A stretch of DNA of 38,183 nucleotides, from positions 1-38,183 of the IMG/VR virus record IMGVR_UViG_2541047893_000009; one strand, 5' to 3'. The translations under genes and the position numbers were made by a program. A model generated the notes under the pieces. The model ran no database searches and was not told the origin of the DNA. It was given only the letters and a program-made list of their open reading frames with translations. Each line of letters opens with the position of its first letter. Position 1 is the first letter of the stretch. Positions 4,792-36,266 of this stretch are shown here, one piece after another. The stretch is from a virus. Its lineage: Duplodnaviria; Heunggongvirae; Uroviricota; Caudoviricetes.

Positions 4792-4812
4792 TGATGGATG
4801 AAATGAAGACGT

Positions 4813-5046: not shown

Positions 5047-5051
5047 ACCGG

Positions 5052-5729
5052 CTATTTTCCGATAAATTCAACGCTGGCACCGGTGGCATTACCGTCAGCA
5101 CCAACCGTGACGGTCACTTTGTCGTACGCACGGTCTTCAGGATTGAACACTTCAAACTCAACCTTATTGCCTTTTACTTCGTAAGAGCCAAAATCAGCGG
5201 TTTCTGTTGTTTCCTCGTCATATTCCCGGGCGTATGCCTGCCGGGCAGCCTGCAGGACGGAATCTTTATTAATGGCGGGTGTCTGTTTCGGGGAAAAACC
5301 AGCAAGTGATGTGACAAATTTCGGACAGACCTTCAGCATATCACCGCGGGTGAATTCCATTCGTACACCAAATGCCTGTAAAACGGACACATCACGCTCT
5401 GCTATGGAGTGAACGGCTTTTTTGACCATTTCCGGCGCCTGTCCGACTTCCACCTCAACAGCCCTGAATCCCGTCTGCTGATTACACATTTGTGATGTGG
5501 GGATCAGGTTACCGTTAATACTGATACGGCTGCCCAGGAGCGTCTGTACACCATTCGGGCATCCCTGCATCAGGCCGGTAATACCAATCGTGCCATTTTT
5601 CAGCATTACCAGCGCCTGACCATCTTCCGTCATGGTCTGACACCAGCCGTTTTTGACAGCCCAGTTGCCGGCGGAGGCGGAGAATGATGCCACAGTGAAC
5701 AGCAGGGGAAAAAGAGCTCTGGTATTCAT
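5052..5729 (-). CDS. Secreted protein or lipoprotein of the YfjS/YafY type
   Basis: Start set at the internal ATG at 5729, giving the N-terminus [25 protein letters not shown], a signal-peptide-like sequence; the track ORF extends to 5834 without a hydrophobic N-terminus. Confidence 0.6.
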
Positions 5730-5876
5730 GACTGACCTCTGAAATGAACGTACGGTGTTATTGATAATGATGGAAGGTATGCAGTGACTGTTCAGGGAAT
5801 GACGTAGCCGTATATTTAGTTTTCTGTTCAACATATTGTCTCCATACCTGTTGGGACGGCTTTGGCAGGCCGGCGA

Positions 5877-6557
5877 TCACAGGTTAAAGGTGTTGATAAG
5901 TTTATGGATGAAAGAGAAATGTGGCAGGGCGGAGATAAAACGCTCTTCAGCGACCAGACTGTGGATGTGGCCTCTCCGTTCAAACCGTTCTGATGTCAGG
6001 CTGACTGATTTGATATCTGCCAGAGGAAAGACCTGCAGTTTTCCCTTCTGTAACGCGATCAGATACCAGCTACCGCTGTAATAAATGAGCCGGCAGGGCT
6101 CCAGTGACGGATACCATCGCTCAGCCATCAGAGAGATGTGGATACACTGTCTTATTGCCAGGATGAGTTGCGAGAAACACTCGGGGAACGTTGCAGTGAT
6201 ATCCGGCGCCGGTAGCCAGATAAGGCAGGGAGAGGGCTCCTGGTTGTCGGTAAGACAGGTTATCAGTCGTCCGTTCCGGAGCGGAAGTATCCGTGCGATC
6301 CCGGTATTCTGTATAAAAGAAAGCATTTCAGGGATCGCACCCGGGCTGCTCTGTCGTCTGAGGCTGTACCTGCCATTTCTGTACTCTAAATCCAGGTGAA
6401 CCAGACGCTGATGAAAATCGCGCTGTAAAGTACGTTCTGTAACGCCAAATTCATCTGACAGTGTTTTTAGTGACAGAGATTCTCCGGTCATCAGTCGGCT
6501 GATAATGAGTGATAAGCGAACCGCCAGGCGATCATGCCGGGAACGATTATCAGACAT
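5877..6557 (-). CDS. YfjR-like transcriptional regulator (N-terminal HTH, WYL-type C-terminal domain)
   Basis: 226-aa ORF; N-terminus RLAVRLSLIISRLMTGESLSLKTLSDEFGVTERTLQRD is HTH-like; position beside the GTPase as in CP4-57 yfjR. Confidence 0.7.
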   Translation of the reverse strand: MSDNRSRHDRLAVRLSLIISRLMTGESLSLKTLSDEFGVTERTLQRDFHQRLVHLDLEYRNGRYSLRRQSSPGAIPEMLSFIQNTGIARILPLRNGRLITCLTDNQEPSPCLIWLPAPDITATFPECFSQLILAIRQCIHISLMAERWYPSLEPCRLIYYSGSWYLIALQKGKLQVFPLADIKSVSLTSERFERRGHIHSLVAEERFISALPHFSFIHKLINTFNL

Positions 6558-6759
6558 AGATGTGCACTCCGTAAGAAAACATCTTTTATTTCATGATGTT
6601 ATTATGCATCATGATGTTGAAAGGATGTGTCGCATCCGGATAATCAGGAATAAAATGCAGCAGAAAAAATATTCTTTTAATTATCTGATTTTTAAGCATG
6701 ATTTCATAAAAAGAAGAATGCTCGTTAATCCAGCGACACATCCTGTCGGCGTGAGTGTG

Positions 6760-7644
6760 TCAGAACAGACGCTCCCACAGTGTGATCAGCAGGTGGATAA
6801 TGCGGTCCCGGGTTTTGCGCAGAAGCTGTAACATCCAGGCCGGAAAACTGAAACGGGCAACGGCGTCGTCAAAACTTTTCCCGATGGTTTCACCAAAAGT
6901 CTGTTGTGCGTGTTTCCGGGCCTGTTCAGAGCGGTTTTCTCCCCGGATATGTGAATACACCGCGCTGGTTGCCTGTGGTGGCAGTGCGTGGATCATCAGC
7001 GACACAAACGCCGGAAGGTTCCAGCCGACAGGTGCAGCAACGGAGAGTACTGGAAATGATGAAGGGAACAGGGTTGCCACCCGGGCTGTCACCGTCGCCA
7101 GTGAGAGCGCCTGCTGACGGGACGGGCATTTTTCTGTGGCATTCCATTCTTCAGCAGGAAACACGCGATCGGCATGGCTGAGAACAAACAGAAAACGCGA
7201 GGGATCTGCGCCTTCATTCAGTAAAAACTGATGCATGGTAATGTCGGCGGCATACGCGCGTTCATCTGCCCGCAGGATCCAGATAATCAGATCCAGTTCC
7301 GGTAGCAGCTGACGATAAAGTGTCCGGTATTCCTGATCATGCTGCGGTGTTTCACCAATGCCGGGCAGATCGACCAGCGTCATTCTGCGTTCACCGAGTT
7401 GCAGGGTAAGACGATGAGCCTGGCGGGTGCAGCCGTTCAGGGGATGCGTGGCGCAGATACGGGACTGAAAAATGGCATTACACAGGCTGCTTTTGCCGGT
7501 GCCGGATTTACCCATAATGCCAATCACGGGCTCGTAATGAATAACACTGTGGAGATGTTCAAGGATTTTCTGGCGAATTTCTTCAGGAAGAAACGTCAGA
7601 TATGATTTCACTTGTGCGGAGAGGGAAGAATGGCTGAATGACAT
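6760..7644 (-). CDS. YfjP/YkfA-family GTPase (50S ribosome-binding / dynamin-like GTPase family)
   Basis: 294-aa ORF with P-loop GIMGKSGTGKSS and a DLPG G3-like motif; characteristic first gene of this island module. Confidence 0.8.
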   Translation of the reverse strand: MSFSHSSLSAQVKSYLTFLPEEIRQKILEHLHSVIHYEPVIGIMGKSGTGKSSLCNAIFQSRICATHPLNGCTRQAHRLTLQLGERRMTLVDLPGIGETPQHDQEYRTLYRQLLPELDLIIWILRADERAYAADITMHQFLLNEGADPSRFLFVLSHADRVFPAEEWNATEKCPSRQQALSLATVTARVATLFPSSFPVLSVAAPVGWNLPAFVSLMIHALPPQATSAVYSHIRGENRSEQARKHAQQTFGETIGKSFDDAVARFSFPAWMLQLLRKTRDRIIHLLITLWERLF

Positions 7645-7746
7645 ACCGGTATCCTGTTGATTTCACTGAACCGGATCACACTAATCCGGTTTATCATTCA
7701 GGTAATATGGGCGTGAAAAAATCTGGAGTGACAAAGTTCGGGAGGA

Positions 7747-8700
7747 GTGATGGCATCACTGTCGATTAATACGCTACGCCGAATGAGCATTTGTAAAAGT
7801 CAGGCCTGGAAAGATACCCAGCGAATACTGAAGCGTAGTGGACTTGTGTACAGAGGGGAACGGTCAGAATCGTTTGATCCTGAGAAACATTTTAATCGTT
7901 ATACGGTGCGTTATCTGTACCTGCTTAACATAATTGCGCTTAAGATAAGGTCGGTTAGTAAATTTTCCTGTTGGATCGAGGTGGGACAATGCCATCGTAT
8001 GACTGGTAAACATTTATCTCTTAATGCCCCGCCTTTTATGCTGATTCCGCGTAGTATCCGGAGAAAAGTGGATGGATTCAGACAGTCAAAAGGTGAAGCA
8101 ACCCCAAAATCGGCTCAACCGTTCACGGGCAGTTTGTATGAGGTTTTGAGCAAGGAGAGCGATTCAGCTAAGCTGGACGCATGGATTGCTGAACTGCCTC
8201 TGAACTTGCAGGAGGAGGGAAAGGAAATCTCAGTCATGGGATTTAGTCCACGGGCTGTGGCCCGACCTGTTCTTCGGTCAGCATCCCCGACGTTTGAACT
8301 GTTTTATCAGGAGTATCAATCCCTAAGATTAAAATCTGTTTTTAAATTTGAACCAAGATTTGAACAACTTTTAACAAGACTGAGCTTTAGAAAACAATCA
8401 ATTCTCAGAAAACAACAATACAGGGTTAAATCGCAATTACTGGAGAGACTGGGGAATGTGTTGTTTTTCACGTCGCTTTATAACCAGGGATGTTTAGAGG
8501 AGTTTATAAATGCACTTGTGGAAAAGGAGGACATTTATCTGAAAATGTCCCCTGGGGAGGAAAAGGTGAAAGCACACCAGAAAATGGTTAACTACATTGA
8601 AGCGTTCTGCAACAAAATGACGGAAAAATACCTGATGCCCGCAGCAAGCAGACACTACAAAAAGAAGAAAATCGCTAGGAGCGAAAGTGGTGAAAGTTAA
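7747..8700 (+). CDS. Hypothetical protein, uncharacterised, AT-rich cargo gene
   Basis: 317-aa ORF preceded by a strong Shine-Dalgarno (GGGAGGAG); the ATG at 7750 is the likely start; no recognised motifs; lower GC by eye than flanking DNA. Confidence 0.6.
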   Translation: MMASLSINTLRRMSICKSQAWKDTQRILKRSGLVYRGERSESFDPEKHFNRYTVRYLYLLNIIALKIRSVSKFSCWIEVGQCHRMTGKHLSLNAPPFMLIPRSIRRKVDGFRQSKGEATPKSAQPFTGSLYEVLSKESDSAKLDAWIAELPLNLQEEGKEISVMGFSPRAVARPVLRSASPTFELFYQEYQSLRLKSVFKFEPRFEQLLTRLSFRKQSILRKQQYRVKSQLLERLGNVLFFTSLYNQGCLEEFINALVEKEDIYLKMSPGEEKVKAHQKMVNYIEAFCNKMTEKYLMPAASRHYKKKKIARSESGES

Positions 8701-9485
8701 TCCAGTCTACCGTACAGAATCAGTTGTTCCAGAATAGCCTGCTGTGTTGTTTTCCGCTCTCTGGTCAGTCTGTCCAGAGCGCTTTTTGCGGATGGCGATA
8801 TCTTTACGTTGATTTGTACCCGTTTATCTTTTTTTCCATCGATAAACTGTTTTCTGAATGCATTGTGCATCTTGTCGAAAAATCTTTCTTTTGCAGCGAA
8901 TCCTAGGTGAAATTCTTTTGGCGTCAGTAAACAGGGTGTGTCTGTGGGGAATAACATTTTTAGTAAAACTACAATGGCAATATATCTTTCGTTATCATTT
9001 ACAGGATTAAACCAGGAAAGATATGTGGGTGAGATACGTGCATCAATATATTCCCATGCCCATTTCAGTTGTTCGGTATTCTTTTTAAGCCATTTGGCTT
9101 CGTTTCTCTTTTCGAGTCCCAGCCAGTTTTGATGCATTATTGAGATAATCCGATCTGCTTCCCCATAAAGGATTAACGCATTAATCCATTTCCCTATAAC
9201 ATTCAGTCGTGTTTCATGACTTGAAGGAATAATTGTCATGGGGTTATCCTTCATAACGATCACCCCCTTCAAGGCAGAATTGAACTCAGATTCATTATTA
9301 AGTTTAAGTTTTTCGGGAACTGTATGAGACATAATTAACCAGAACCAGAATGCTGCAATTTCATTTTTTCTGATCCATTCAGGTATGTGATTATCTGCCA
9401 GATTATTATCATTCAATAAATGCTCAGTTGTTTTATTTTTCCAGTCATATCTATTCACGTTATAACCGCCTTTATATTGTTTCAT
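8697..9485 (-). CDS. Hypothetical protein with a C-terminal ribbon-helix-helix-like segment, AT-rich cargo gene
   Basis: Start set at the ATG at 9485 (MKQYKGGYNV...), which has GAGG about 10 nt upstream; the track ORF runs to 9572. The C-terminus RVQINVKISPSAKSALDRLTRERKTTQQAILEQLILYG resembles an RHH DNA-binding fold. The stop overlaps the stop of the convergent 7747-8700 gene (shared TTAA at 8697-8700). Confidence 0.55.
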   Translation of the reverse strand: MKQYKGGYNVNRYDWKNKTTEHLLNDNNLADNHIPEWIRKNEIAAFWFWLIMSHTVPEKLKLNNESEFNSALKGVIVMKDNPMTIIPSSHETRLNVIGKWINALILYGEADRIISIMHQNWLGLEKRNEAKWLKKNTEQLKWAWEYIDARISPTYLSWFNPVNDNERYIAIVVLLKMLFPTDTPCLLTPKEFHLGFAAKERFFDKMHNAFRKQFIDGKKDKRVQINVKISPSAKSALDRLTRERKTTQQAILEQLILYGRLD

Positions 9486-9610
9486 CTGATTACGCCTCAA
9501 TCGTTTTCTTTTCTGGTGATTTTCACCATCACATGTCAGTTGTATATGCAAGGGAATCAATAAAAATATCACCCTGCAAGCACTTCAAAGCTGATTATGG
9601 GGATATTCTA

Positions 9611-9664
9611 GAACTATTCACAAAACTATTCCAGACATATCAAGAACTATTTCTTGATCTATTC
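9611..9664. repeat. Four direct repeats of RAnCTATTC upstream of the 8697-9485 gene
   Basis: gaactattc (9611), aaactattc (9623), gaactattt (9644), gatctattc (9656); spacing 12, 21, 12 bp. Confidence 0.4.
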
Positions 9665-10164
9665 ATAATAAAATAAAACATGCTATCAACTACGGATCAT
9701 ATCCTCCTTAGGTGTGTCGTTGTACTGTTCGACTGTTCTTGTGGTCAGATTAACAATCTGAAGAGTAAAAGCGACAGTAATCTGTCTGTTATAGTGGCGA
9801 TAAAAACACTGACTGCGCATCCTGTATGTGAAATCCTGTCATGTAGAGCAGTAAGCAATGACAGACATGCATGTTATATGTGAAGGGGCCGGGAGACGAC
9901 ATAATCAGTATGGCTGTCATTCTGGTTGTAAAACGCGATCACTTTCCGGGGGTAAAAGATGATATGGAGGTTGACAAACGGTTTGCTTCGGATTGTCTTT
10001 TCTGGGGCCTGAAGTACGGGGGCAGAAAAATAATTCCAGAGTAAATCTGCTCTGTTTTTAGGACAGAAAACTCCATGCTGGCTGTAAAAGTGAAAAATTA
10101 ACACCTAGTATGTATGGAAGTCTGAAGATATTGAGAATGTCGGTATGATACTATATACACATAT

Positions 10165-10285
10165 TTTACTAAGTATTTTTACTAAGCATTTCAGTAAGTG
10201 TTATACACGTATTTTCTACTAAGTGTTTTACCAGACATACACGTGTTTTCATAAACAGCCCTATAAGTGTTTTCATTAAGCATTG
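10165..10285. repeat. Iteron-like cluster of ACTAAG[TC]-containing repeats
   Basis: ttttactaagtattttt, actaagcatt, cagtaagtgtt, ctactaagtgtttt, tataagtgttttcat, cattaagcatt within about 120 bp in an ORF-poor AT-rich tract. Confidence 0.4.
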
Positions 10286-11147
10286 CTGTACACATTGCTT
10301 TGTCTGAAACACATCCAGTTTAGTAAATCTTTACGTTAGCTAAAATCAGTTTAAAGCTGCTGTAAAACCTTTTTGTTTAAGCAATCAATCTGCTATTCGA
10401 TTTTACTGATGTTGCGTTTAACCTTTTCTGAGTTTTTGTGTTTTTAGTCGTTAACCTGAGACAAGTGTCTTTACGTAAAAACGCAAATCCGACTGAGATA
10501 ACCTGGTGTGATTTACGGTGTGCTTGCGACGATTTTGTTAAATGGTTCTATGGATGATTTTGTGACGATGAGATTGATGAGATGATTAACTGGCCCTGGT
10601 GTTTTTTCTCAGTGCAAGGTGATTATCTTTATCATAAGGCTCTTTTCAGAAAAAGCGTGATGATTGGTTCTGGTGTTTTGATTCAGATGAGATTTACGTT
10701 ATCGATGGTTAATCGTTTTTATGGTGTGTTGAAAAGTAACGTTTTCAGGATAAGAAAATCGATTCTGATATTGGTGAACTTTGTTCTTGTGGCAGAGTTA
10801 TCTGTAAACAGGTTTTAAGTGCGCTATTCGGCTCTGTGATTGAGTTGTGTGGTTAAGCTGTAGGTTTTGGTGTTGTTGTTGATTTGCATTGCCAGGAAGC
10901 GTTCTGGTTGCGTTTCTGGTGTTTTGTTCGAATGTTCTGTGGATCCTTTTCCCTTCAGGCTTTTCTCGTCGTCCATGTCGTTTTTAAATCTATTCATGCT
11001 GTTGTTGCGTGTTTTGCTGCTGTGTGCAGGATTATCTTTTCGTTCCGGGATGGTTTGTTCCGTTTCAATCACTCTTAATCAGAGAGTTGTAGCATTGCTC
11101 AATGCCGGATGCCGTAAAGTTTTACCGCGTTGATGAATGATGTGAAG

Positions 11148-11309: not shown

Positions 11310-11699
11310 TTACTCTTTTTTCTCCGTATCTACATCGGGTTCATCAGCAAATAGCTTGCCCTGCATCCGATCCAGTTCTTCTTTTCTTACCCGCTTAACC
11401 ACGCTGTAGACCCACTGAAGCGAAACACCAAATTTGCGGGCCAGTTCATGGTGGTTACGTCCGTTAAACTCCCTGAAGATTTCCCGGTCGCGCTGACTGA
11501 CCTTCCATACCATGCCCATCGGGAAATAAACGTTTTGCCCGCCCCAGACCTGCATCATGCGGTTCGCGACGGCCTGACCAATCTGGTCGGCAATTGCGGG
11601 CTCAATATCAATAATCTCGCGAACGGTCTCAGAGGTATGCTGTGCCAGTTCCACCAGGAGTTCCGGCCCTTTACTTCGAAACTGATTCAGGTCGCTCAT
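11310..11699 (-). CDS. mor: Mor/C-family transcription activator (middle/late gene activator)
   Basis: 129-aa ORF, the same length as Mu Mor; the C-terminal HTH region ...REIFREFNGRNHHELARKFGVSLQWVYSVVKR is typical of the Mor/C family; last gene of the early operon. Confidence 0.85.
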   Translation of the reverse strand: MSDLNQFRSKGPELLVELAQHTSETVREIIDIEPAIADQIGQAVANRMMQVWGGQNVYFPMGMVWKVSQRDREIFREFNGRNHHELARKFGVSLQWVYSVVKRVRKEELDRMQGKLFADEPDVDTEKKE

Positions 11700-16328: not shown

Positions 16329-18098
16329 TCAGTTGCCGTTAACAATGCTGATAACGCTGCTGCGGGCCGGCGTGGTCAGCGTGGCCATGACTTCATCCAG
16401 TGCGGCTTCCGGTACGCCGTCCGGATACTGTGCCGTTAACTGGCGGTAATGTTCCGGCGTCCAGGTAAGGCCGTCGGCGCTGAACTTATCGCGCAGGGCT
16501 TTCGCGGCCTCCACATGAGTCATGGGACGTTGTTCAGTGCGCGGCCCGCGTACGTCAGAGGCCTGACCTCGCTTCGGCATATAGGCCGGAAGTGTGGCGT
16601 CATCAATATGTTTATATGGGTCAAGCCGCCCGCCGAACGGCAGCGCCTTCGCCTTGCGTGCGGCAGCTGCATCTGCGGCGTTGTCTGTACCGGTGACCAG
16701 CGCTTCGGTTTCTTTTGCCGCCATCTGCGCCGGGGTTTCCGGCAGGGCTTTGTAACTTTCGCCAAATACCGCCGCGCCTTCAGCAAAGCCAAACTCGTTC
16801 TTTCTGACTTCTTCGACCAGGAAGAACGTCTCGTGGCCGTCCTCACCGGTCAGAACCACCTGTGCCACATCGCTGCGCCACGGGTTACGGGTAATCATCA
16901 GTTTTTCACCGACCAGTACGCCCGGTACCGTTGATACGTCAAATTCAGTGCCCCGGAACGAGACACGAAGTTTTGGCGTGACTTTGCGGAGTTCTGGTGC
17001 CGCCACAGCCAGTTCACGACATACCTCAACGGAAGGCGCTTTTTTCAGCTGCTCAGCAGTAATCTTCAGCCAGATATCCGTGCGGGTTTTACCGTGGCGG
17101 CTGTGAACAGCCGTGGCGTTAAAGTGGCTGCGCCATTTCGCGGCCAGCGCATTGAGTTCTTCCAGACTGTGAACCGGCCGGAACTTCAGACCCGGCTCCA
17201 GCTTGCGTTCGATAATGTCCCGCGCCTTTTCCACCTGTCCGGTGGCGCGGGCGTTATGCGGCTTGTGCGCTATCAGGTCGATGCCCAGTGAGCGGCACAT
17301 GTTTTTCGTCATACCCGCGGTGTTTGCCGAGCCGGGGTCGAGATAGAGTATTTTTGGCACGCCGTGCAGCACGTCTGCGCCGCCACGCTCCTGCATGGCG
17401 TTGATAAGCACAGAACACAGGTTCTCACCTGATTCCGCGCCCGTCACATACTCAACGTAAATCCAGCCGCTGGCATGGTCGGTAATCTCGTAACTCCACA
17501 CGCGGTCACTGGCGATACGGGCAAGGTTAGCGGGCTTGTTCTTGTAGAACTTCGCGCTGTCCATCACCTGCAGCCCTTTATGTCCATTGCTCAGGTAGTA
17601 AAGCGTGCAGAGTGAGGCGTCAATCTGCCAGACATGATTGGGGTGCAGACTGGCCACTTCGGTATGCGGTGCAGGAGCATCCAGTTGTTCCGGGTGCAGG
17701 CCATAGTTACGCAGAGCACGGCTGATGGCATCTTCAGACAACGGGAAAAACTCACCGGTGGTTTCATCTGTTCTGCCTGCGGTGATAAAGCCGTTAGCCC
17801 GCAGGGTTTCCACTGCATCTGCGATGGAATAGAGGCGTTTACCGTTCTTGCGGGTGGCCTCACGCAGTGTGGCAGATATCAGCGCGGCTTCGTCGCGGGT
17901 CAGGGCGCTGCGTCCGGCATCAGCGCGTTTTTTGCGTTTATCAGTCACAGAGACCTCCTTCAGCCTGCGCAGCAGAGTGGCGCGGGACATGCCAAGTTCA
18001 GCACAGGCAGCGTCGTATATTGCACCGCGTTTACCATGCCCCGCGTCACGTGCCGCGCGGGCGACATAAACCAGTCGTTCAGTCAGGGCAGCATTCAT
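16329..18098 (-). CDS. DDE transposase of the Mu A type (N-terminal HTH, rve/integrase catalytic core), shorter than MuA
   Basis: 589-aa ORF with a retroviral-integrase-like core region (WQIDAS..., LYLDPGSANT...); paired with the downstream MuB-like ATPase and Gam. Confidence 0.85.
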   Translation of the reverse strand: MNAALTERLVYVARAARDAGHGKRGAIYDAACAELGMSRATLLRRLKEVSVTDKRKKRADAGRSALTRDEAALISATLREATRKNGKRLYSIADAVETLRANGFITAGRTDETTGEFFPLSEDAISRALRNYGLHPEQLDAPAPHTEVASLHPNHVWQIDASLCTLYYLSNGHKGLQVMDSAKFYKNKPANLARIASDRVWSYEITDHASGWIYVEYVTGAESGENLCSVLINAMQERGGADVLHGVPKILYLDPGSANTAGMTKNMCRSLGIDLIAHKPHNARATGQVEKARDIIERKLEPGLKFRPVHSLEELNALAAKWRSHFNATAVHSRHGKTRTDIWLKITAEQLKKAPSVEVCRELAVAAPELRKVTPKLRVSFRGTEFDVSTVPGVLVGEKLMITRNPWRSDVAQVVLTGEDGHETFFLVEEVRKNEFGFAEGAAVFGESYKALPETPAQMAAKETEALVTGTDNAADAAAARKAKALPFGGRLDPYKHIDDATLPAYMPKRGQASDVRGPRTEQRPMTHVEAAKALRDKFSADGLTWTPEHYRQLTAQYPDGVPEAALDEVMATLTTPARSSVISIVNGN

Positions 18099-19387: not shown

Positions 19388-19576
19388 TTATGCCGCATTT
19401 GACGTGGGTTTTAATCCCAGTTTTACGGCAATTTCATGGGCTTTGCCGTAACGAGCTTTGGTCTGTCCATTGAGAACACGATAGACCTCATTGCGGCTGT
19501 AGCCGTGTTCTTCGGCCCAGCGGGTAAACGTGATACCACGCTGACGGAAGAGATTTTTAACTTGTTCGGAAGTCAT
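19388..19576 (-). CDS. Ner-like/Cro-like small DNA-binding protein, first gene of the early operon
   Basis: 62-aa ORF divergent from the repressor gene; GYSRNEVYRVLNG...GKAHEIAVKLGLKP resembles the Ner family HTH and C-terminal pattern as recalled. Confidence 0.6.
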   Translation of the reverse strand: MTSEQVKNLFRQRGITFTRWAEEHGYSRNEVYRVLNGQTKARYGKAHEIAVKLGLKPTSNAA

Positions 19577-19626
19577 TGTTGTCTCCTTTGTTGATGCAAT
19601 GATGTTTGTTTTATATGTGATAGATT

Positions 19627-20088
19627 ATGAGAACTATTATTCTCATTGTCAATGAGGTTTATGTGAATTTTGATTCTCTTTGCGCGTCGCGGTTCAAAGC
19701 TGAGCGTTCGCGGTTATCACTCAAGCAGGCTGAAGTAGCAGCCCTTTGTGGCGTTTCAAGAGAAATGTGGGGGAAATATGAACGAGGGGTTGCTGTTCCC
19801 GGAGGTGAGTTACTTGCAGCCTTTGCAAGAATTGGGGCCAATGTACAGTTCATTCTTACCGGGGAGTCATCAGGTATAACTTTATCACGTGATGAAATGG
19901 AGTTACTGCAGCACTACCGGCAGGCACCATTACAGGTCAAAGGTTCAGTTTTGTCGGCCTTGACTACTGGCTCCTCCAGAGAACGGGCGGAACAGGTTAT
20001 TCATGGAGATGTTCTGGGGAATGTTATCAAAGGTAACGTAACCATAGGAACAGGTGGAATAATGAACAAAAATACCAAGAGAAGATGA
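19627..20088 (+). CDS. XRE-family HTH repressor (candidate prophage immunity repressor)
   Basis: HTH LSLKQAEVAALCGVSREMWGKYERG; divergent from the early operon. The true start is possibly the in-frame GTG at 19663, because the ATG-initiated N-terminus overlaps the operator-like palindrome. Confidence 0.75.
   Translation: MRTIILIVNEVYVNFDSLCASRFKAERSRLSLKQAEVAALCGVSREMWGKYERGVAVPGGELLAAFARIGANVQFILTGESSGITLSRDEMELLQHYRQAPLQVKGSVLSALTTGSSRERAEQVIHGDVLGNVIKGNVTIGTGGIMNKNTKRR
19642..19656. promoter_or_regulatory. Candidate operator: perfect 7-bp inverted repeat CTCATTG-t-CAATGAG in the divergent repressor / early-operon control region
   Basis: Palindrome read directly at 19642-19656, between the Ner-like start (19576) and the body of the repressor gene. 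Confidence 0.4.
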
Positions 20089-21071
20089 GTAAAGAGAAGC
20101 AAACAGTTAACGGGGATGTGGGTAACGTTGTCAGCGGTGATGTTACCATTCATAACTATTCTGCTGACATACTTCCTTCGGCCCAGCAACCAATTTCGTT
20201 GCTGCAAAAACGCGATTTACACAGATTGATGGATGAATTGGTTGATCTGGGGGAAAGTAAGCGCGAGCTATGGATGACGATCCACACGAAACTTAATACC
20301 AAAACAGTTAATGAAATGACTGCGGCTGATTATCATGGTGCGGTTGAGATCCTTCAGAGATATGCACAACAGATCCAGAATATGAAGGACTGTAATCTTC
20401 TGGTCAGCAAAATAATGGCGCTTACTGACCCTGGGTATCGTCTTGACCGTGACAGATACTGTCTGAAGCATTTCGGTACAACCCATCTTAAAGGCCTAGA
20501 CAAAGAGCAGTTGCAGGCTGTGTTTGGTTATTTTGATGATCTGCTGAATATTCGTGATGAGAGTAAAACTCTATCACCTCCATCGGAAAGCGGTGCAAAA
20601 TCAGTCGCAACTGTACCAACCAGAAGCCGGAAGCCTCATGTAGTAGTGTTGGGGGGAGTGTTAGTTCTTGTAGCAATATTTTTCGTGGGAATGATTGTGT
20701 TCGCTGGTAAATGGGGAAATGCCAAAGCAGTAGCTTCTACTGAAACCAGCGTTTTTAACATTAAAACCAACAATAAAATAATAGAAGATTCCATCCCCGC
20801 ACTGCGCAGCATGTTTCCAGGGTTAAATAAGTACTCAGATGATTTCCATTCGGTTTCAAGCTACAAGCAAAAAACGGGCTGGCATACCCTTAAATTTACT
20901 GTATCAGCAAAGGCATCCGTCCCCGAAAATTATAGTGTTAAGGGCAAGGTTTGTTACATTAACATAAGCCCTGATGGTAGTTATGCTCGGGTTTTGACTG
21001 CTCCATGTCGTTCACTGCTACTTGATCAGCAAAGCACTCCTGACAGTAAATACCGTTTTATTCTTAAATAG
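20085..21071 (+). CDS. Single-pass membrane protein of unknown function (328 aa), translationally coupled to the repressor
   Basis: Its ATG overlaps the repressor stop (ATGA); central TM helix HVVVLGGVLVLVAIFFVGMIVFAG; AT-rich; N-terminus shares a GDV-GNV-G-VTI motif with the repressor C-terminus. Confidence 0.6.
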   Translation: MSKEKQTVNGDVGNVVSGDVTIHNYSADILPSAQQPISLLQKRDLHRLMDELVDLGESKRELWMTIHTKLNTKTVNEMTAADYHGAVEILQRYAQQIQNMKDCNLLVSKIMALTDPGYRLDRDRYCLKHFGTTHLKGLDKEQLQAVFGYFDDLLNIRDESKTLSPPSESGAKSVATVPTRSRKPHVVVLGGVLVLVAIFFVGMIVFAGKWGNAKAVASTETSVFNIKTNNKIIEDSIPALRSMFPGLNKYSDDFHSVSSYKQKTGWHTLKFTVSAKASVPENYSVKGKVCYINISPDGSYARVLTAPCRSLLLDQQSTPDSKYRFILK

Positions 21072-21152
21072 AAAATAACAGCTGAATTACCATGGGATCA
21101 GAAAAAAGACAAAGGCGGCATCATGCTGCGTTCTGAAATTTTAATGTAAAAG

Positions 21153-21743
21153 GTGATGAACATGGCAGGGATTCAGGTTATCGCAGGAAGTTTTCCTAAA
21201 GGGTGGGCAAGCATGGGGTTCGGTACCATCGTGTTTGCCAAAAAACCAAAACAAGGCTTTCCTGAAAATATTGTATTAAATCTGAAAGAAGAGCTTTTAT
21301 CGATTGAACTTGCGGATAGTGAAGAGGAAAGCCGTATAGGTAAGGCGGCAGGCGCAGGTTTGCTTGGTGGATTAATCTTTGGTGGTGCAGGGTTGGTCAT
21401 TGGAGGTTTGCTTGGTGCGGCGGACAAGACGAAAAAAACTATCACTTTTAAGGCAATGTTTACGGGAAATAGGTTACTTCTGGCTAAAACAGATTCAAAA
21501 ACTTTTGTAAAACTTCAGTCAATTGCTGCTGATAATGCCCATAACGCATCTGTAATCAACATGAAGCAAACTAATAGGGGCGATGTTTCTTCTCGTAAAC
21601 AACTAACAGAAAATCCACAGCAGCAAGACTTACCTGCGCCCGCTACAACAGTAAAAATGACTGCCAAAGATAAGTTAGAATCGGCTCTTGGGCTGGGAAT
21701 CATCGTTATAGCTGTTTGGGCAATAATACACTTCTTTTTTTAG
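21153..21743 (+). CDS. Glycine-zipper membrane protein of unknown function (about 194 aa)
   Basis: AAGAGLLGGLIFGGAGLVIGGLLGAA glycine-zipper TM segment plus a C-terminal TM (LGLGIIVIAVWAIIHFFF); the likely start is the ATG at 21162 with AAGGTG upstream; followed by a terminator. Confidence 0.6.
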   Translation: MMNMAGIQVIAGSFPKGWASMGFGTIVFAKKPKQGFPENIVLNLKEELLSIELADSEEESRIGKAAGAGLLGGLIFGGAGLVIGGLLGAADKTKKTITFKAMFTGNRLLLAKTDSKTFVKLQSIAADNAHNASVINMKQTNRGDVSSRKQLTENPQQQDLPAPATTVKMTAKDKLESALGLGIIVIAVWAIIHFFF

Positions 21744-21744
21744 T

Positions 21745-21770
21745 GCAGCCCTTCAGGGCTGTTTCTGTTC
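21745..21770 (+). terminator. Rho-independent terminator (stem CAGCCC/GGGCTG, loop TTCA, then TTTCTGTTC)
   Basis: Hairpin read directly, 2 nt after the stop of the 21153-21743 gene. Confidence 0.6.
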
Positions 21771-21780: not shown

Positions 21781-22257
21781 TTAAGGATTATCCGGGGCGT
21801 TTTCCTGTTTGCCGTACTTCGGAGACGAACAACATTCTGTTGGCTGACCGGTGAGTTTACGTAACTCCTTCATGAGCAGCTCCTGATCGTAAACTGTCAT
21901 CAGTGCCGCAATGGTGGCATGCAGTGCATCGGGCAGTATCCAGGGTTGCCGGCCCGTGGGGCATATAACATCCAGCAGCTCATTCGTCCGACAGATACGC
22001 TCCTCGCCGTATGACAACAGGCCCTGTCCCGTGTATTCCTCTAGCCTGATCACTGTGCCACCCCGTGGCTTCTGCCAGGTCGTCAGATCTTCGCCATTCA
22101 TACGGCGCTCATTCTCCACGTCAGCAGCATCGACAATGACGCTGTTTCCGAGTTCCTGTTTCACCATCTCTTCTATCCGCGCCAGTACGTAACTTTTACC
22201 GCTGCCCACAGGACCGGACACAGTGACAGTGATGACCGGATTCAGTGTGTGCGTCAT
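21781..22257 (-). CDS. Small P-loop NTPase/kinase-like protein (158 aa)
   Basis: Walker A VSGPVGSGKSYV and a possible Walker B SVIVDAAD; convergent with the repressor-linked operon and divergent from the late operon. Confidence 0.55.
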   Translation of the reverse strand: MTHTLNPVITVTVSGPVGSGKSYVLARIEEMVKQELGNSVIVDAADVENERRMNGEDLTTWQKPRGGTVIRLEEYTGQGLLSYGEERICRTNELLDVICPTGRQPWILPDALHATIAALMTVYDQELLMKELRKLTGQPTECCSSPKYGKQENAPDNP

Positions 22258-22740: not shown

Positions 22741-23481
22741 ATGAACTGGCCGCAGATCACCTGGATTGTATGCATGTCCCTGAAACTGGCTTTCGAAGCC
22801 TTTCGGGTCTTCATCAGAACCGAACGCCTGTCAGTCCGCGCCGGGACCTTTCTGGTTCATATGGCATGGGTATTCTTTGTCGCAATGTTGCTCTGGTGTG
22901 GCGGCTTTTTCAGCCAGGCATGCGCAGCACAACCTCCGCAGGCTGCGCTGCAGTATCGCGATGATGTGATCCGTAATGCCCGGCTTGAATGGGGACTGTC
23001 TGCGCCGGTGGCCGATTTCGCCGCGCAACTGCATCAGGAAAGCGGCTGGCGACCTGATGCGATCTCGCCGGCTGGCGCTCAGGGACTGGCGCAGTTCATG
23101 CCTGCCACTGCCGACTGGATAAGCCAGTTGATACCGATGCTGAGCAGTCGTGAGCCGTTTAATCCGGCATGGGCTATCCGGGCGCTGGTCAGCTATGACC
23201 GCTGGCTGTGGCAGCGTGTCAGCGCCGCCAGTGACTGCGAGCGTATGGCCATGACACTGTCGGGCTATAACGGTGGTCTGGGCTGGGTACAACGGGACAG
23301 GCGGCTTGCATCACAGAAAGGTCTGGACAGCACCCGCTGGTTCGGACATGTCGCCACGGTGAATGCCGGACGCAATGCGGCCAGCTGGCGGGAGAACCGC
23401 CATTATCCGCAGCGCATCCTGCGCGAACTGGCACCGCGATATCTCACATGGGGAGGCAGCAGTTGTGTGGCATCTGATTAA
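22741..23481 (+). CDS. Endolysin, lytic transglycosylase (SLT domain), with a probable N-terminal signal or signal-anchor
   Basis: SLT signature AQLHQESGWRPDAISPAGAQGLAQFMPATA; hydrophobic MAWVFFVAMLLWCGGFF segment (alternative start at 22861). Confidence 0.8.
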   Translation: MNWPQITWIVCMSLKLAFEAFRVFIRTERLSVRAGTFLVHMAWVFFVAMLLWCGGFFSQACAAQPPQAALQYRDDVIRNARLEWGLSAPVADFAAQLHQESGWRPDAISPAGAQGLAQFMPATADWISQLIPMLSSREPFNPAWAIRALVSYDRWLWQRVSAASDCERMAMTLSGYNGGLGWVQRDRRLASQKGLDSTRWFGHVATVNAGRNAASWRENRHYPQRILRELAPRYLTWGGSSCVASD

Positions 23482-25294: not shown

Positions 25295-26886
25295 CAAAAT
25301 CATCCGGAGTGATTTTAAACGCCGCTGGCGGCGGCCCCGAAGGGATGAGTCCCATGGACGGGAGGAATAACCTTGCTCCCGTTTTGCCTGATACCTCGGC
25401 GCTGGATGCCCCTCCCGTTCTGTTGCCTTACCAGCAGCGCTGGGTGGCAGACACCTCTCCGCTTAAGGTGATAGAAAAGAGCCGTCGTACCGGTATTACA
25501 TGGGCTGAGGCATCCGATAACGTACTGACCGCCGCCTCTTCTGCGCCAGCAGGCGGGATGAATGTGTATTACATCGCTTATAACCAGGACATGACCGTCG
25601 AATACATTCAGGCGTGTGCGATGTGGGCACGGGCATTCAACTATGCGGCCAGTGAAATTGAAGAAGGATTCTGGGAAGAGGACGACGACGACAAACACAT
25701 CAAGACTTACACCATCAAATTTCCTGACTCCGGCTTTCGTATTGTTGCGCTCTCCAGCCGCCCGTCTAACCTGCGTGGCCGTCAGGGTATTATTGTTATC
25801 GACGAAGCGGCGTTCCATGAGCAACTGGACGAACTGCTGAAAGCGGCGCTGGCGATGCTTATCTGGGGGGGAAAGGTACGCGTTATCTCCACCCATGACG
25901 GTGACGACAATCCGTTCAATACGCTTATCGGGGATATCCGTGCCGGACGTCAGGGAGGCAGCATACATCGCATCACTTTCCGGGAAGCCGTATCTGAGGG
26001 GCTGTTCCGGCGCGTCTGTCTGCGCACCGGGAAGGAATGGTCGGAGGCATCCGAGCAAGCCTGGATGGCATCGGTGTACAAATTCTACGGTGCCGGCGCA
26101 TCCGAAGAGCTTGACTGTATTCCGGCCAACGGTGGCGGTGCCTGGCTGTCCCGTGCCCTGATAGAGTCCCGCATGTCCGCTGATACGCCGGTATTGCGTC
26201 TGACCTGCAAGGAAGGTTATGAACTGCTGTCTGATGAGGTTCGCTTCCGCGAGACGCAGGACTGGCTTGATGAGTATCTGAAACCCTTGCTGGAGGCACT
26301 CCCCACTGATGCCCGCTCTTTCCTGGGGCGCGACTTTGGCCGTAGCGGTGATTTGTCGGTGGACTATCCCCTGCTGCAGGAGAAGAACCTGGTACGACGC
26401 GTGCCATTCGTACTGGAGCTGCGTAACGTGCCGTTCAGACAGCAGGAGCAAATCACCTGGTATCTGATGGATGGCCTGCCCGGTCTGCTGGGTGCAGCGT
26501 TTGATGCCCGTGGTAATGGTGCCTATCTGGCTGAATACGCCATGCAGCGCTACGGCTCCAGCCGGGTTCAGCAGGTGATGCCAACCGAAGGCTGGTACCG
26601 GGAGCATATGCCTCCGGTCAAAGCTGCACTGGAAGACGGTAACCTGGTGGACTTACCAAAGGATGAAGACACACTGGATGACCTGCGGGCCGTTCAGGTG
26701 GTGAACGGTGTCCCCCGCGTACCGGAGCAACGCTCAAAAGCAAAGGCTGACGGTGGTAAACGCCACGGGGATTCAGCCATCGCACTGGCGCTGGCGTATT
26801 TCGCCAGCCGTGAAATTAACAAAGGGCCGGTGAAGGCAAGCTCACGCCGTCGTCGTCAGGCGGCCCGTATGCTGGAGGGATTCTGA
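25291..26886 (+). CDS. Terminase large subunit (Mu gp28-like)
   Basis: 531-aa ORF with an ATPase region (KSRRTGITWAEAS) and a nuclease-type C-terminus; position upstream of portal. Confidence 0.85.
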   Translation: MTKSSGVILNAAGGGPEGMSPMDGRNNLAPVLPDTSALDAPPVLLPYQQRWVADTSPLKVIEKSRRTGITWAEASDNVLTAASSAPAGGMNVYYIAYNQDMTVEYIQACAMWARAFNYAASEIEEGFWEEDDDDKHIKTYTIKFPDSGFRIVALSSRPSNLRGRQGIIVIDEAAFHEQLDELLKAALAMLIWGGKVRVISTHDGDDNPFNTLIGDIRAGRQGGSIHRITFREAVSEGLFRRVCLRTGKEWSEASEQAWMASVYKFYGAGASEELDCIPANGGGAWLSRALIESRMSADTPVLRLTCKEGYELLSDEVRFRETQDWLDEYLKPLLEALPTDARSFLGRDFGRSGDLSVDYPLLQEKNLVRRVPFVLELRNVPFRQQEQITWYLMDGLPGLLGAAFDARGNGAYLAEYAMQRYGSSRVQQVMPTEGWYREHMPPVKAALEDGNLVDLPKDEDTLDDLRAVQVVNGVPRVPEQRSKAKADGGKRHGDSAIALALAYFASREINKGPVKASSRRRRQAARMLEGF

Positions 26887-36109: not shown

Positions 36110-36266
36110 TGCCCTCGATACTGACGATCTGGAGATGTGGCTGGAGCAGGCTGAAGAGCAAATCAAAAGCGAGTACGGCGACAAATCATAGTACAGACAG
36201 CCGCCAGTAGCGGCTGTTCTGCGTTATCCCCTCACGTCTTTTCACCTTCCCCGGAGGTTAACCACT

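What the first reader, a model, noticed from the sequence alone, without database searches (positions are those of the whole stretch)
19627..21770. Repressor-coupled, AT-rich two-gene membrane-protein operon: a cI-rexAB-like candidate defence or exclusion module
The XRE repressor gene is followed by a 328-aa single-pass membrane protein whose ATG overlaps the repressor stop (ATGA), then by a glycine-zipper membrane protein with its own SD, then by a clean rho-independent terminator (21745-21770). The two downstream genes look markedly AT-richer than the prophage structural genes (by eye), which suggests they are an acquired moron. A lysogen-expressed repressor operon carrying membrane proteins is the architecture of lambda cI-rexA-rexB and of several superinfection-exclusion systems. 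I do not recognise either protein as a known family, so this is my best candidate for an undescribed system.
Basis: partly seen in the sequence, partly recalled or inferred. Interest (0 to 1): 0.75.

Follow-up and report, generated by a model that had tools for sequence, protein, structure and literature searches.

The report
Phage repressor with motif-matched membrane partner
This is the immunity operon of a Mu-like E. coli prophage, in which the repressor's tail and the start of the membrane protein encoded next to it carry the same short glycine/asparagine-rich motif, and that motif changes in step in dozens of other prophages, which points to an undescribed physical link between a phage repressor and the cell membrane.

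Summary
An XRE repressor gene is followed by an ATGA-overlapped gene for a 328-aa single-pass membrane protein (C1), a glycine-zipper membrane protein (C2) and a terminator hairpin. GC is 0.42-0.43 here against 0.57 in the late genes.

The rexAB-like reading of a two-gene membrane system is not supported, because C1 and C2 are separable. C2 (Pfam PH_gly_zipper) follows a different repressor without C1 in Citrobacter-type prophages. Other repressor-C1 prophages carry other cargo in that position.

C1 is tied to the repressor. The repressor's C-terminal tail (VIHGDVLGNVIKGNVTI) and the C1 N-terminus (TVNGDVGNVVSGDVTI) share a motif found nowhere else in the window. In about 45 P2-like and Mu-like prophage loci the same tail/N-terminus match recurs. 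At least four motif classes co-vary between the two proteins (z = 4-14 against shuffles), whatever the partner's globular domain (Flk_N or zinc ribbon). The partner has a predicted membrane segment wherever its full sequence was read.

Position, length and composition match bacterial amyloid signalling motifs (BASS), which are not known from repressors.

My best reading is that C1 is a membrane-anchored partner that couples to the repressor through homotypic motif association. Mechanism and direction are inferred. C2 is independent cargo of unknown function.

The parts
19624..19652 (-). Sigma-70-like early promoter (TTGACA-17-CATAAT, 11/12) that drives the leftward Ner-like/transposase operon
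   Evidence: It faces the Ner-like gene 19388-19576.
19627..19646 (.). Operator-like palindrome ATGAGAA-N6-TTCTCAT, lying between the -35 and -10 of the early promoter. A degenerate second copy at 19659-19682 overlaps the probable repressor start.
   Evidence: (D1, I2). That it is a repressor binding site is inferred.
19627..20088 (+). XRE-family immunity repressor (annotated ATG 19627; probable true start GTG 19663). It consists of an HTH, a conserved helix (ELLQHYRQAPLQVKGSVLSALTTGSS), the tail motif and a basic C-terminus.
19996..20058 (+). Coding region of the repressor C-terminal tail motif (VIHGDVLGNVIKGNVTIGTGG, residues 124-144)
20085..21071 (+). C1, a 328-aa bitopic membrane protein translationally coupled to the repressor (ATGA overlap)
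20103..20159 (+). Coding region of the C1 N-terminal motif (TVNGDVGNVVSGDVTIHNY, residues 7-25). It matches the repressor tail.
   Evidence: The motif is disordered in the AF2 monomer.
20175..20564 (+). C1 cytoplasmic helical Flk_N domain (about residues 31-160)
   Evidence: NCBIfam Flk E 2.9e-12; hhalign against true Flk gives 98.5% probability; AF2 pLDDT about 90
20643..20711 (+). C1 transmembrane helix (about residues 187-209). The preceding residues TRSRKPH suggest an N-in topology.
20757..21068 (+). C1 periplasmic alpha/beta domain (about residues 225-328) with two conserved Cys. It is homologous to a family of stand-alone lipoproteins encoded downstream of repressor/motif-protein pairs in other Mu-like prophages.
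21162..21743 (+). C2, a 193-aa PH_gly_zipper-family protein with a glycine zipper (residues 62-87) and a C-terminal TM segment (171-193). It is independent cargo, not part of the repressor-C1 pair.
21745..21770 (+). Terminator-like hairpin (7-bp stem, 5 GC pairs, 4-nt loop) plus a T-rich tail, closing the operon

Best explanation
The region is the immunity operon of a BcepMu-like transposable prophage. It holds two things.

1. An obligate pair: an XRE repressor and a membrane-anchored partner, C1. The two are made by translational coupling (inferred from the ATGA overlap). The last ~35 residues of the repressor and the first ~25 residues of C1 carry the same G/N/V-rich motif of about 20 residues.
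2. An unrelated, exchangeable cargo gene, C2.

C1 is built from the N-terminal motif, a cytoplasmic Flk_N helical domain, one TM helix and a periplasmic domain. Elsewhere that periplasmic domain is a separate lipoprotein.

Inferred mechanism: the two motif copies associate homotypically, by beta-strand or amyloid-like pairing, as in BASS signalling pairs. The membrane-anchored partner would then capture, template or release the repressor. This would tie the amount of active repressor, and so induction or immunity, to something sensed at the envelope.

Shown here: the gene coupling, the shared motif, its co-variation and purifying selection, and the membrane anchoring.
Inferred: physical contact between the two proteins, the amyloid-like nature of the contact, and the direction and output of signalling.

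C2 most likely acts on its own at the membrane as a lysogen-expressed accessory protein.
For: Pairing
- The repressor-C1 pair with a 4-bp overlap is conserved in Yersinia, Serratia, Salmonella and other enterobacterial prophages, while the third gene varies.
- Reverse test: 13 of 13 IMG/VR relatives of the repressor keep the tail, and C1 follows in the 5 loci where the script could read the next gene.

The motif in this window
- The repressor C-terminal half is nearly invariant while the HTH part diverges. The C1 N-terminal motif is nearly invariant.
- The tail against the C1 N-terminus gives a Smith-Waterman score of 55, against 19.7 +/- 4.3 for shuffles (z = 8.2).
- The motif pattern occurs only twice in the six-frame translation of the window.
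- Motif codons show up to 14 of 22 synonymous codon changes and at most 5 non-synonymous between orthologues, which indicates purifying selection rather than recent gene conversion.

The motif in distant loci
- Distant Flk_N+TM proteins (23-30% identity) lie just downstream of the repressor in P2-like prophages (next gene in Yersinia; a further tail-bearing paralogue or a small ORF intervenes in Erwinia and Silvimonas; an integrase follows in Erwinia and Yersinia) and in Mu-like prophages. In each case the repressor tail matches its partner's N-terminus.
- The score matrix is block-diagonal for the GDV, AGRD and FHG classes. A fourth class (FNG) appears in L070 and L072.
- The partner's globular domain can be replaced by a zinc ribbon while the matching motif and the TM segments stay (L069 z = 14.2, L077 z = 10.1).
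- Some operons carry a second TM protein with the same N-terminal motif (L027, L041).

Negative control
- The same phage backbone with a CI-type repressor lacking the tail has no C1 (L009-L012).

Resemblance to BASS
- Motif composition is N 3.05x, G 2.56x, V 1.74x and Q 1.4x background, with L 0.19x, K 0.40x and no P. This is the bias reported for BASS motifs.
- The arrangement of adjacent genes, with a C-terminal motif on one protein and an N-terminal motif on the next, defines amyloid signalling pairs, including Bab/Agp in E. coli.

Link to the periplasm
- The C1 periplasmic domain is a separate lipoprotein gene just downstream in L007/L008, L023 and L068-L081. This fusion/fission pattern links it to the cassette.

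Repressor role
- An operator-like palindrome sits inside the divergent early promoter.
Against: - There is no experimental evidence and no complex prediction, because the tools fold single chains only.
- The motif is simply disordered in the AF2 monomer, which fits many explanations.
- Most family members are tail-anchored and have no periplasmic domain, so envelope sensing is not general.
- In one class (L019-L021, L068, L071, L073-76, L079-81) the middle protein keeps a BASS-like motif, but the repressor has a different C-terminus and no second motif copy is found within +/-3 kb.
- The two genes are inherited together, so the number of independent co-variation events is about 4 motif classes, not 45 loci.
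- The partners are not the NLR/TGP sensors and Bell/TIR effectors of known BASS systems.
- No match to a defined BASS family could be tested.
- A competing-ligand model that needs no amyloid fits the same data.
Confidence: 0.5

Rival explanations
1. One reading: C1 and C2 together form a repressor-coupled membrane defence or exclusion system analogous to lambda RexA/RexB.
For: The gene order is repressor, two membrane proteins, terminator. The region is AT-rich. Both proteins are uncharacterised, and the slot varies between related prophages.
Against: - C1 and C2 occur independently. C2 sits behind another repressor without C1. C1 occurs without C2 in Serratia, Yersinia and Salmonella and in 27 E. 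coli genomes.
- There is no similarity to RexA/RexB or to any PADLOC model.
- The repressor tail does not match the C2 N-terminus convincingly (z = 2.0).
Confidence: 0.07
2. C1 is a superinfection-exclusion protein. Its periplasmic lipoprotein-type domain blocks DNA entry of incoming phages at the inner membrane, as Ltp, Sie2009, T4 Imm/Sp and HK97 gp15 do. The shared motif would only serve co-regulation or co-localisation with the repressor.
For: C1 is a membrane protein in the repressor (lysogeny) operon. Its periplasmic domain belongs to a family of small prophage lipoproteins that always sit in the immunity operon. Known Sie proteins have this kind of position and topology (established knowledge).
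Against: - Most Flk_N+TM relatives have no periplasmic domain at all.
- The best-conserved parts of C1 are cytoplasmic, namely the motif and Flk_N.
- This model does not explain why the motif co-varies with the repressor tail even when the partner domain changes.
- No homology to known Sie proteins was detected.
Confidence: 0.17
3. An abortive-infection version of amyloid signalling with the roles reversed. The DNA-bound repressor is the sensor, for example displaced by an incoming phage's antirepressor. Its freed tail templates the N-terminal motif of one or several membrane proteins, which then damage the membrane.
For: The motif evidence is the same as for the best explanation. Several membrane proteins can share the motif in one operon. 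The precedent Bab/Agp kills through a membrane-targeting effector.
Against: - In known pairs the N-terminal motif sits on the sensor and the C-terminal motif on the effector, which is the opposite of this assignment.
- Flk_N, the zinc-ribbon proteins and the 130-aa TM protein show no similarity to pore-forming Bell/HeLo domains.
- Constant 1:1 co-expression of trigger and toxin would be risky for the lysogen.
Confidence: 0.13
4. A non-amyloid competition model. The Flk_N domain (or the zinc-ribbon domain) binds the motif as a peptide ligand. The partner's own N-terminal copy is an autoinhibitory pseudo-ligand, and a signal frees the domain to bind the repressor tail. This would be a membrane-anchored anti-repressor resembling the anti-sigma/sigma logic.
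Against: The motif stays the same when the globular domain is swapped from Flk_N to a zinc ribbon. This argues that the motif copies recognise each other rather than a co-evolved domain pocket. The fold matches are not significant.
Confidence: 0.2
5. C1 mimics host Flk. It acts on the flagellar type III export gate (FlhA) to change flagellation of the lysogen, for example to exclude flagellotropic phages.
For: The Flk_N domain is truly homologous to Flk. Flk is a membrane-anchored inhibitor of the export specificity switch and interacts with FlhA-C in two-hybrid assays.
Against: - The similarity covers one domain only, at 21% identity.
- C1 scores 46.5 bits against the 353-bit Flk cut-off.
- Flk lacks the N-terminal motif.
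- This model explains neither the repressor-tail match nor the partners in which Flk_N is replaced.
Confidence: 0.05

Closest known systems
Bacterial amyloid signalling sequence (BASS) gene pairs, e.g. Bab/Agp of E. coli ECOR25 and Bell/NLR pairs of Actinobacteria and Cyanobacteria
   Same: The genes are adjacent. A motif of about 20-25 residues sits at the C-terminus of one product and at the N-terminus of the next. The composition is rich in G/N/Q/V/I and poor in K/P/L. The motif diverges between lineages but stays matched within a pair. The motif is modular and attaches to different globular domains.
   Different: The partners here are a phage HTH repressor and membrane-anchored Flk_N or zinc-ribbon proteins. 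They are not NLR/TGP sensors with Bell/TIR/CHAT effectors. The context is the lysis-lysogeny operon of P2-like and Mu-like prophages. Amyloid formation is untested, and no match to BASS1-11 could be checked.
Lambda cI-rexA-rexB operon
   Same: Accessory genes lie directly downstream of the repressor gene in what looks like one operon (co-transcription is inferred), and at least one product is a membrane protein.
   Different: There is no sequence or domain similarity. RexB has four TM helices and RexA is cytoplasmic. Here the two downstream genes are separable, and the first shares a motif with the repressor, which Rex does not.
ImmR/ImmA-type repressor and co-transcribed anti-repressor pairs (ICEBs1 and many Gram-positive prophages)
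   Same: An XRE repressor is followed in the same operon by a dedicated protein proposed to control it. This gives a way to induce a prophage whose repressor lacks a LexA-like self-cleavage domain.
   Different: C1 has no metallopeptidase (COG2856/M78) domain. It is membrane-anchored. The proposed coupling is through a shared terminal motif, not through proteolysis.
Flk (Fluke/RflH), the flagellar export-switch inhibitor of Salmonella and E. coli
   Same: It has a homologous Flk_N helical domain (hhalign 98.5%) on the cytoplasmic face of the inner membrane, held there by a TM anchor.
   Different: Flk has no N-terminal G/N/V motif, has additional Flk-specific cytoplasmic sequence after Flk_N (343-427 aa in all), and has a C-terminal tail anchor with no periplasmic domain. 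C1 lies far below the Flk equivalog cut-off and sits in a prophage immunity operon.
Prophage superinfection-exclusion lipoproteins and membrane proteins encoded beside the repressor (Ltp of TP-J34, Sie2009, Cor, Llp)
   Same: These are small envelope-exposed proteins encoded in the lysogeny module. The C1 periplasmic domain belongs to a lipoprotein family always found there.
   Different: No homology was detected. C1's conserved core is cytoplasmic and matched to the repressor by the motif.

Membership tests
Lambda Rex (RexA/RexB) exclusion system | Homology to RexA and RexB | tested here: not met
   Pfam, NCBIfam, PHROG and PADLOC scans of C1 and C2 give no Rex hits.
Lambda Rex (RexA/RexB) exclusion system | Two downstream genes that act, and are inherited, as a pair | tested here: not met
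   C2 occurs without C1 (L009-L012). C1 occurs without C2.
BASS-type amyloid signalling gene pair | Adjacent genes with a shared motif at the C-terminus of one product and the N-terminus of the other | tested here: met
   Window pair: Smith-Waterman score 55, z = 8.2. About 45 further loci give z = 3.8-14.2.
BASS-type amyloid signalling gene pair | Motif of about 20-25 residues, enriched in G/N/Q/V/I and depleted in K/P/L | tested here: met
   N 3.05x, G 2.56x, V 1.74x, Q 1.4x, L 0.19x, K 0.40x, P 0 over 436 motif residues.
BASS-type amyloid signalling gene pair | The N-terminal motif sits on an oligomerising sensor (NLR/STAND or TGP) and the C-terminal motif on a death effector (Bell, TIR, CHAT...) | tested here: not met
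   The N-terminal side is Flk_N/zinc-ribbon plus TM. The C-terminal side is an HTH repressor.
BASS-type amyloid signalling gene pair | The motif forms amyloid fibrils, behaves as a prion, and cross-seeds its partner | not testable with these tools
   This needs peptides or GFP fusions. AF2 only shows the motif as disordered in the monomer.
Flk (NCBIfam PRK10715 equivalog) | Full-length match above the curated cut-off (353 bits) | tested here: not met
   46.5 bits, residues 19-147 only.
Pfam Flk_N domain (PF27202) | Homology of the cytoplasmic helical domain to the Flk N-terminal domain | tested here: met
   Precomputed PF27202 hits on C1 homologues. hhalign gives 98.5% probability, E 2.8e-15, over 126 columns.
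Pfam PH_gly_zipper (PF27000), for C2 | Match to the family model | tested here: inconclusive
   There are only precomputed hits, marked weak, on C2 homologues. The model is not in the local Pfam copy. The AF2 model of C2 failed (pLDDT 34).
ImmR/ImmA-type repressor/anti-repressor pair | The partner is a COG2856/M78 metallopeptidase | tested here: not met
   No peptidase domain in C1 or C2.
BcepMu-like (Bcepmuvirus-type) transposable prophage | Leftward early operon (Ner-like, transposase, ExeA/B-like ATPase, Gam, GemA, Mor) diverging from a rightward lysis and Mu-type head/tail operon, with random insertion sites | tested here: met
   Annotation and Pfam. The same prophage end (TGATTAGAC..., window 11148) abuts three different flanks in three genomes.

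The most novel reading that the evidence does not exclude
A new class of lysis-lysogeny control. Membrane-anchored proteins carrying an N-terminal prion/amyloid-like (BASS-type) motif would template or capture the identical motif on the C-terminal tail of the prophage repressor. Envelope-level events would then be converted into repressor inactivation, or into reinforcement of immunity. The plug-in motif would let different membrane sensors (Flk_N, zinc ribbon, small TM proteins, with periplasmic lipoprotein partners) feed one repressor. The arrangement is widespread in P2-like and Mu-like prophages of Proteobacteria.
Probability: 0.25. Interest if true: 0.9.

Novelty: new variant of a known kind. 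Interest (0 to 1): 0.74.

Why it matters
Many P2-like and Mu-like prophages have repressors without a LexA-type self-cleavage domain, and how they are induced is mostly unknown. A repressor whose tail is motif-matched to a co-translated membrane protein offers a concrete, testable route from the cell envelope to the genetic switch.

If the motif works like BASS motifs, amyloid-type signalling would extend beyond cell-death immunity to transcriptional control by phages, and into Enterobacterales, where only Bab/Agp is known.

C1 is present in 127 of 5426 complete E. coli genomes, including clinical and extra-intestinal isolates such as IAI39 and CE10. It is almost absent from isolated phage genomes, so it has escaped study.

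The result also corrects the picture of the locus. The defence-candidate pair is really a regulatory pair plus an unrelated cargo gene.

Tried and rejected
- The AF2 model of C2 failed (pLDDT 34, shallow alignment), so nothing structural can be said about C2.
- Sequence searches against PDB gave no hits for C1 or C2.
- PADLOC gave no credible defence-family hit.
- The genome-contig scan with the C1 alignment returned a single locus, and the diverse alignment A3 was too divergent for pattern scanning. The context survey therefore relied on the look-up of encoding contigs and IMG/VR.
- tblastn of C1 and distant Flk_N proteins against 50,697 phage records found only Escherichia phage 520873, where the gene is frameshifted and unannotated.
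- Literature searches found nothing linking amyloid motifs, Flk_N or PH_gly_zipper to phage repressors.
- Recent gene conversion as the cause of the motif match was considered and rejected, because the two copies and their orthologues differ at many synonymous sites.
- A compositional artefact was considered and rejected, because composition-preserving shuffles give z = 4-14 and the score matrix is block-diagonal.
- A search for a second motif copy in the exception class (repressors ending KLVVNH) found none within +/-3 kb.
Full report
**1. What is there**

The window carries a BcepMu-like (Bcepmuvirus-type) transposable prophage of E. coli. The 3-kb core is 100% identical to strain DSM 101139 and 99.9% identical to IAI39 and CE10.

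A leftward early operon runs from 19576 down to about 11310. It encodes a Ner-like HTH (19388-19576), an IclR-type HTH, a DUF3102 protein, the DDE transposase (16329-18098), an ExeA-type ATPase, Gam, GemA and Mor (11310-11699). It diverges from rightward genes that end in a lysis cassette (holin from 22340, SLT 22741-23481) and Mu-type head and tail genes.

The prophage end (TGATTAGAC..., window 11148) abuts three unrelated flanks in the window, DSM 101139 and IAI39. This is what a transposing phage is expected to leave.

The finding lies between the two operons:
- the XRE repressor (19627-20088);
- C1 (20085-21071), whose ATG overlaps the repressor stop as ATGA;
- C2 (RefSeq start 21162, ending 21743);
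- a hairpin at 21745-21762 followed by a T-rich tail.

GC is 0.43 for C1 and 0.42 for C2, against 0.57 for the late genes. The repressor (0.46) and the two neighbouring regulators (0.46-0.48) are also AT-rich.

Two details:
- The repressor probably starts at GTG 19663, which has a GAGG upstream and matches the orthologue starts.
- An operator-like palindrome, ATGAGAA-N6-TTCTCAT (19627-19646), sits between the -35 and -10 of the leftward promoter. A degenerate second copy lies over the GTG start. This fits an immunity repressor, although binding is inferred.

**2. C1 and C2 are not one system**

Full-length C1 homologues (44-82% identity among the complete ones) occur in E. coli, Salmonella, Serratia, Yersinia and Morganella. 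In every context examined the repressor gene immediately precedes C1 with the same 4-bp overlap. The next gene differs from case to case:
- a 249-aa protein in Yersinia;
- nothing in Serratia;
- an 89-aa protein in Salmonella;
- a 177-aa lipoprotein in L007/L008;
- a 203-aa protein plus a DUF2441 protein in E. coli WS3294A.

Conversely, a C2 homologue (71% identity, very common in Citrobacter-type prophages) follows a different, CI-type 121-aa repressor on the same phage backbone, with no C1.

Among E. coli complete genomes, C1 is in 127 of 5426 and C2 in about 100. Twenty-seven genomes have C1 without C2. Phage PhiKM, of the same genus, has yet other genes in the slot.

However, C1 belongs with the repressor, and C2 is independent cargo.

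C2 has precomputed weak hits to Pfam PH_gly_zipper and no defence-family match. Its structure prediction failed, so its function stays open.

**3. Anatomy of C1**

- Residues 1-29 are disordered in the model but nearly invariant in sequence.
- Residues about 31-160 form a confident helical domain (pLDDT about 90).
- Residues about 187-209 form one TM helix, preceded by basic residues, which suggests the N-terminus is inside the cell.
- Residues about 225-328 form a confident alpha/beta domain with two conserved cysteines, which fits a periplasmic location.

The helical domain is homologous to the N-terminal domain of Flk, the membrane-anchored inhibitor of the flagellar export switch (NCBIfam E 2.9e-12; hhalign 98.5%). 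C1 is nevertheless far below the Flk cut-off and has a different architecture.

An exhaustive profile search splits C1 into two families found separately:
- proteins of about 180-270 aa with an N-terminal motif, Flk_N and a C-terminal TM anchor;
- proteins of about 130-200 aa, mostly lipoproteins, made of the C1 periplasmic domain.

In L007/L008 a short C1 (Flk_N + TM) is followed by such a lipoprotein. C1 is therefore a fusion of two neighbouring genes.

**4. The key result: a shared, co-varying terminal motif**

The repressor ends ...QVIHGDVLGNVIKGNVTIGTGGIMNKNTKRR. C1 begins MSKEKQTVNGDVGNVVSGDVTIHNY.

- The local alignment scores 55, against 19.7 +/- 4.3 for composition-preserving shuffles (z = 8.2).
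- The pattern occurs nowhere else in the six-frame translation of the window.
- Both copies are nearly invariant among orthologues, while the HTH part of the repressor diverges.
- The motif codons carry many synonymous and few non-synonymous changes. This means purifying selection on the protein, not recent gene conversion.

Distant Flk_N+TM proteins (23-30% identity) lie in the lysogeny region of P2-like prophages, downstream of the repressor and, in Erwinia and Yersinia, upstream of the integrase (a further tail-bearing repressor paralogue or a small ORF can lie between repressor and partner). This was seen in Erwinia, Yersinia enterocolitica, Silvimonas and Escherichia phage 520873. They also lie next to the repressor in about 30 Mu-like IMG/VR contigs.

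I used a repressor HMM built without the last 40 residues. With it, a family member ends -4 to +20 nt before the partner gene in 39 of 41 usable loci; in one further locus (L016) it ends 411 nt before the partner gene, with a small ORF in between, and the remaining locus (L028) is cut off by the contig end.

The tail and the partner's N-terminus match within each locus, even though the motif differs between lineages:

| Class | Repressor tail | Partner N-terminus |
|---|---|---|
| GDV | HGDVGQTVKGNVTI | HGDVGIVAEGDV |
| AGRD | GQRIAGRDFHE | QNRGAGRDFHE |
| FHG | QTFHGSVGQSVAGNVTNKSGVTFNVG | QDFHGDVGQAAAGDINNYGVSISL |
| FNG | IFNGDISGQFAGNQIINNG | EFNGTAQGQFSSRDIINI |

Cognate scores give z = 3.8-14.2. 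The tail-by-N-terminus matrix is block-diagonal: AGRD tails score 41-53 with AGRD partners and 13-27 with the rest.

Three further observations argue that the motif itself is the functional link:
- The partner's globular domain can be swapped for a zinc ribbon, while the matching motif and the membrane segments remain (L069, L077/78).
- Some operons encode a second TM protein with the same N-terminal motif (L027, L041).
- The same phage backbone with a tail-less CI-type repressor has no such partner (L009-L012).

In the reverse direction, all 13 IMG/VR relatives of the window repressor keep the tail. C1 follows in the 5 loci where the script could read the next gene.

**5. What the motif resembles**

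- Length is about 20-25 residues.
- Position is the C-terminus of one product and the N-terminus of the adjacent one.
- Composition is N 3.05x, G 2.56x, V 1.74x and Q 1.4x background, with L 0.19x, K 0.40x and no P.

These are the features by which bacterial amyloid signalling sequences (BASS) were discovered. They also characterise the E. coli Bab/Agp abortive-infection pair.

The partners here are different. They are an HTH repressor and membrane-anchored Flk_N or zinc-ribbon proteins, not NLR/TGP sensors with Bell/TIR effectors. Amyloid formation cannot be tested with these tools.

I found no paper connecting such motifs, Flk_N or PH_gly_zipper to phage repressors.

**6. Mechanism**

Shown:
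- the ATGA overlap that implies translational coupling;
- the motif identity, co-variation and selection;
- predicted membrane anchoring of the partner wherever its full sequence was read;
- recurrent association of a periplasmic or lipoprotein component.

Inferred:
- the two motif copies associate homotypically, by beta or amyloid-like pairing;
- the membrane partner thereby captures, templates or releases the repressor;
- this links the switch to the envelope.

The arrangement in which the N-terminal motif sits on the upstream, oligomerising component matches the known paradigm if C1 is the sensor and the repressor is the output.

The rivals are a Sie-type exclusion role for the periplasmic domain, a reversed abortive-infection version, a non-amyloid pseudo-ligand competition model, and Flk mimicry. 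Each is scored separately in this report.

**7. Caveats**

- The pair is co-inherited, so independent support amounts to about four motif classes and two partner-domain types, not 45 loci.
- One class of loci (repressors ending KLVVNH/R) has a BASS-like motif on the middle protein but none on the repressor or elsewhere within +/-3 kb.
- Most family members lack a periplasmic domain.
- Fold searches gave nothing significant.
- C2 remains functionally unassigned.

**8. Verdict**

The proposed interpretation is only partly right. The locus contains a previously undescribed pairing of a repressor with a membrane partner through a BASS-like motif. This pairing is widespread in P2-like and Mu-like prophages but almost absent from isolated phage genomes. 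I rate it a new variant of a known kind (terminal-motif signalling pairs) in a new biological role, with high interest and a directly testable mechanism.

Noticed in passing
window 21781-22257 (-): A P-loop protein of 158 aa (annotated 'ABC transporter ATPase', phrog_3787) matches only positions 1-157 of the 242-position PHROG profile. In phage PhiKM the gene under the matching DNA is annotated at 243 aa. The copy in the window therefore looks C-terminally shortened, exactly where the C2/terminator block abuts it, possibly a recombination scar.
   Followed up: partly
window 19627-19663: The RefSeq start of the repressor (ATG 19627) lies inside the operator-like palindrome and the early promoter. 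GTG 19663, with an upstream GAGG, matches the orthologue N-termini and is the more likely start.
   Followed up: partly
window 11148 (prophage left end): The prophage end TGATTAGACTTGAG... is shared by the window, DSM 101139 and IAI39, but it is joined to three unrelated flanks (the sucABCD-hut region, the sitABCD/lambdoid remnant, and the island described in the next item). This is direct evidence of transposition-type insertion. The end starts with the TG typical of Mu-type ends.
   Followed up: yes
window 1-11147: The left flank is a different mobile or defence-like island. It encodes a DUF932 protein (3905-4723), a WYL/HTH regulator (5877-6557), a dynamin/MMR_HSR1-type GTPase (6760-7644) and two large ORFs without Pfam hits (7747-8700, 8697-9572). 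A very AT-rich stretch (GC 0.34-0.40) spans about 8500-11000.
   Followed up: partly
L014 4535-5991 (Erwinia pyrifoliae P2-like prophage): Three tandem paralogues of the tail-bearing repressor all end in INVSGSGQRVAGRDYHEG(E/K)K, upstream of one Flk_N+TM partner. In the sister genome L015 one of them is replaced by a YebY-family periplasmic protein.
   Followed up: no
L027 4303-4695 and L041 4249-4641 (IMG/VR Mu-like contigs): A second downstream protein of 130 aa with TM segments starts with MGNQSFNGDVGQVAGGNINNYG. This is the same motif class as the repressor tail and the Flk_N partner, so one repressor may have several motif-matched membrane partners.
   Followed up: partly
L069 2617-2973; L077 about 2560-2930: An alternative partner has an N-terminal AGRD motif, a CxxC...CxxC zinc ribbon and one or two TM segments, with no Flk_N. 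It lies between a tail-bearing repressor and the lipoprotein. In L077 it appears to use a non-ATG start.
   Followed up: partly
L019-L021, L068, L071, L073-L076, L079-L081: In this exception class the repressor has a different helical C-terminus (...KLVVNH/R) and no motif. The middle membrane protein carries an extra N-terminal helix followed by an internal BASS-like motif (ITISVGGNNHGSIHVGSVVNI or KVKGNNANINFGTQLNF). No second copy was found nearby.
   Followed up: partly
L052 (Escherichia phage 520873, NC_049344) 2040-3080: This is the only isolated-phage record with the pair. The Flk_N gene is broken by frameshifts and left unannotated, the integrase is split in two, and a YebY-like ORF is fragmented. 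The record is either a decaying prophage or has sequence errors.
   Followed up: partly
L001 (IAI39) 25450-25995, 36096-36377, 42805-43001: The IAI39 copy of the prophage has internal stops in the DUF3486, a small tail-region gene and the gp25-like baseplate gene. In DSM 101139 the first two genes are annotated without internal stops; the gp25-like gene lies beyond the stretch retrieved. The immunity operon is thus kept intact (99.9% identity) in a prophage that is otherwise decaying.
   Followed up: no
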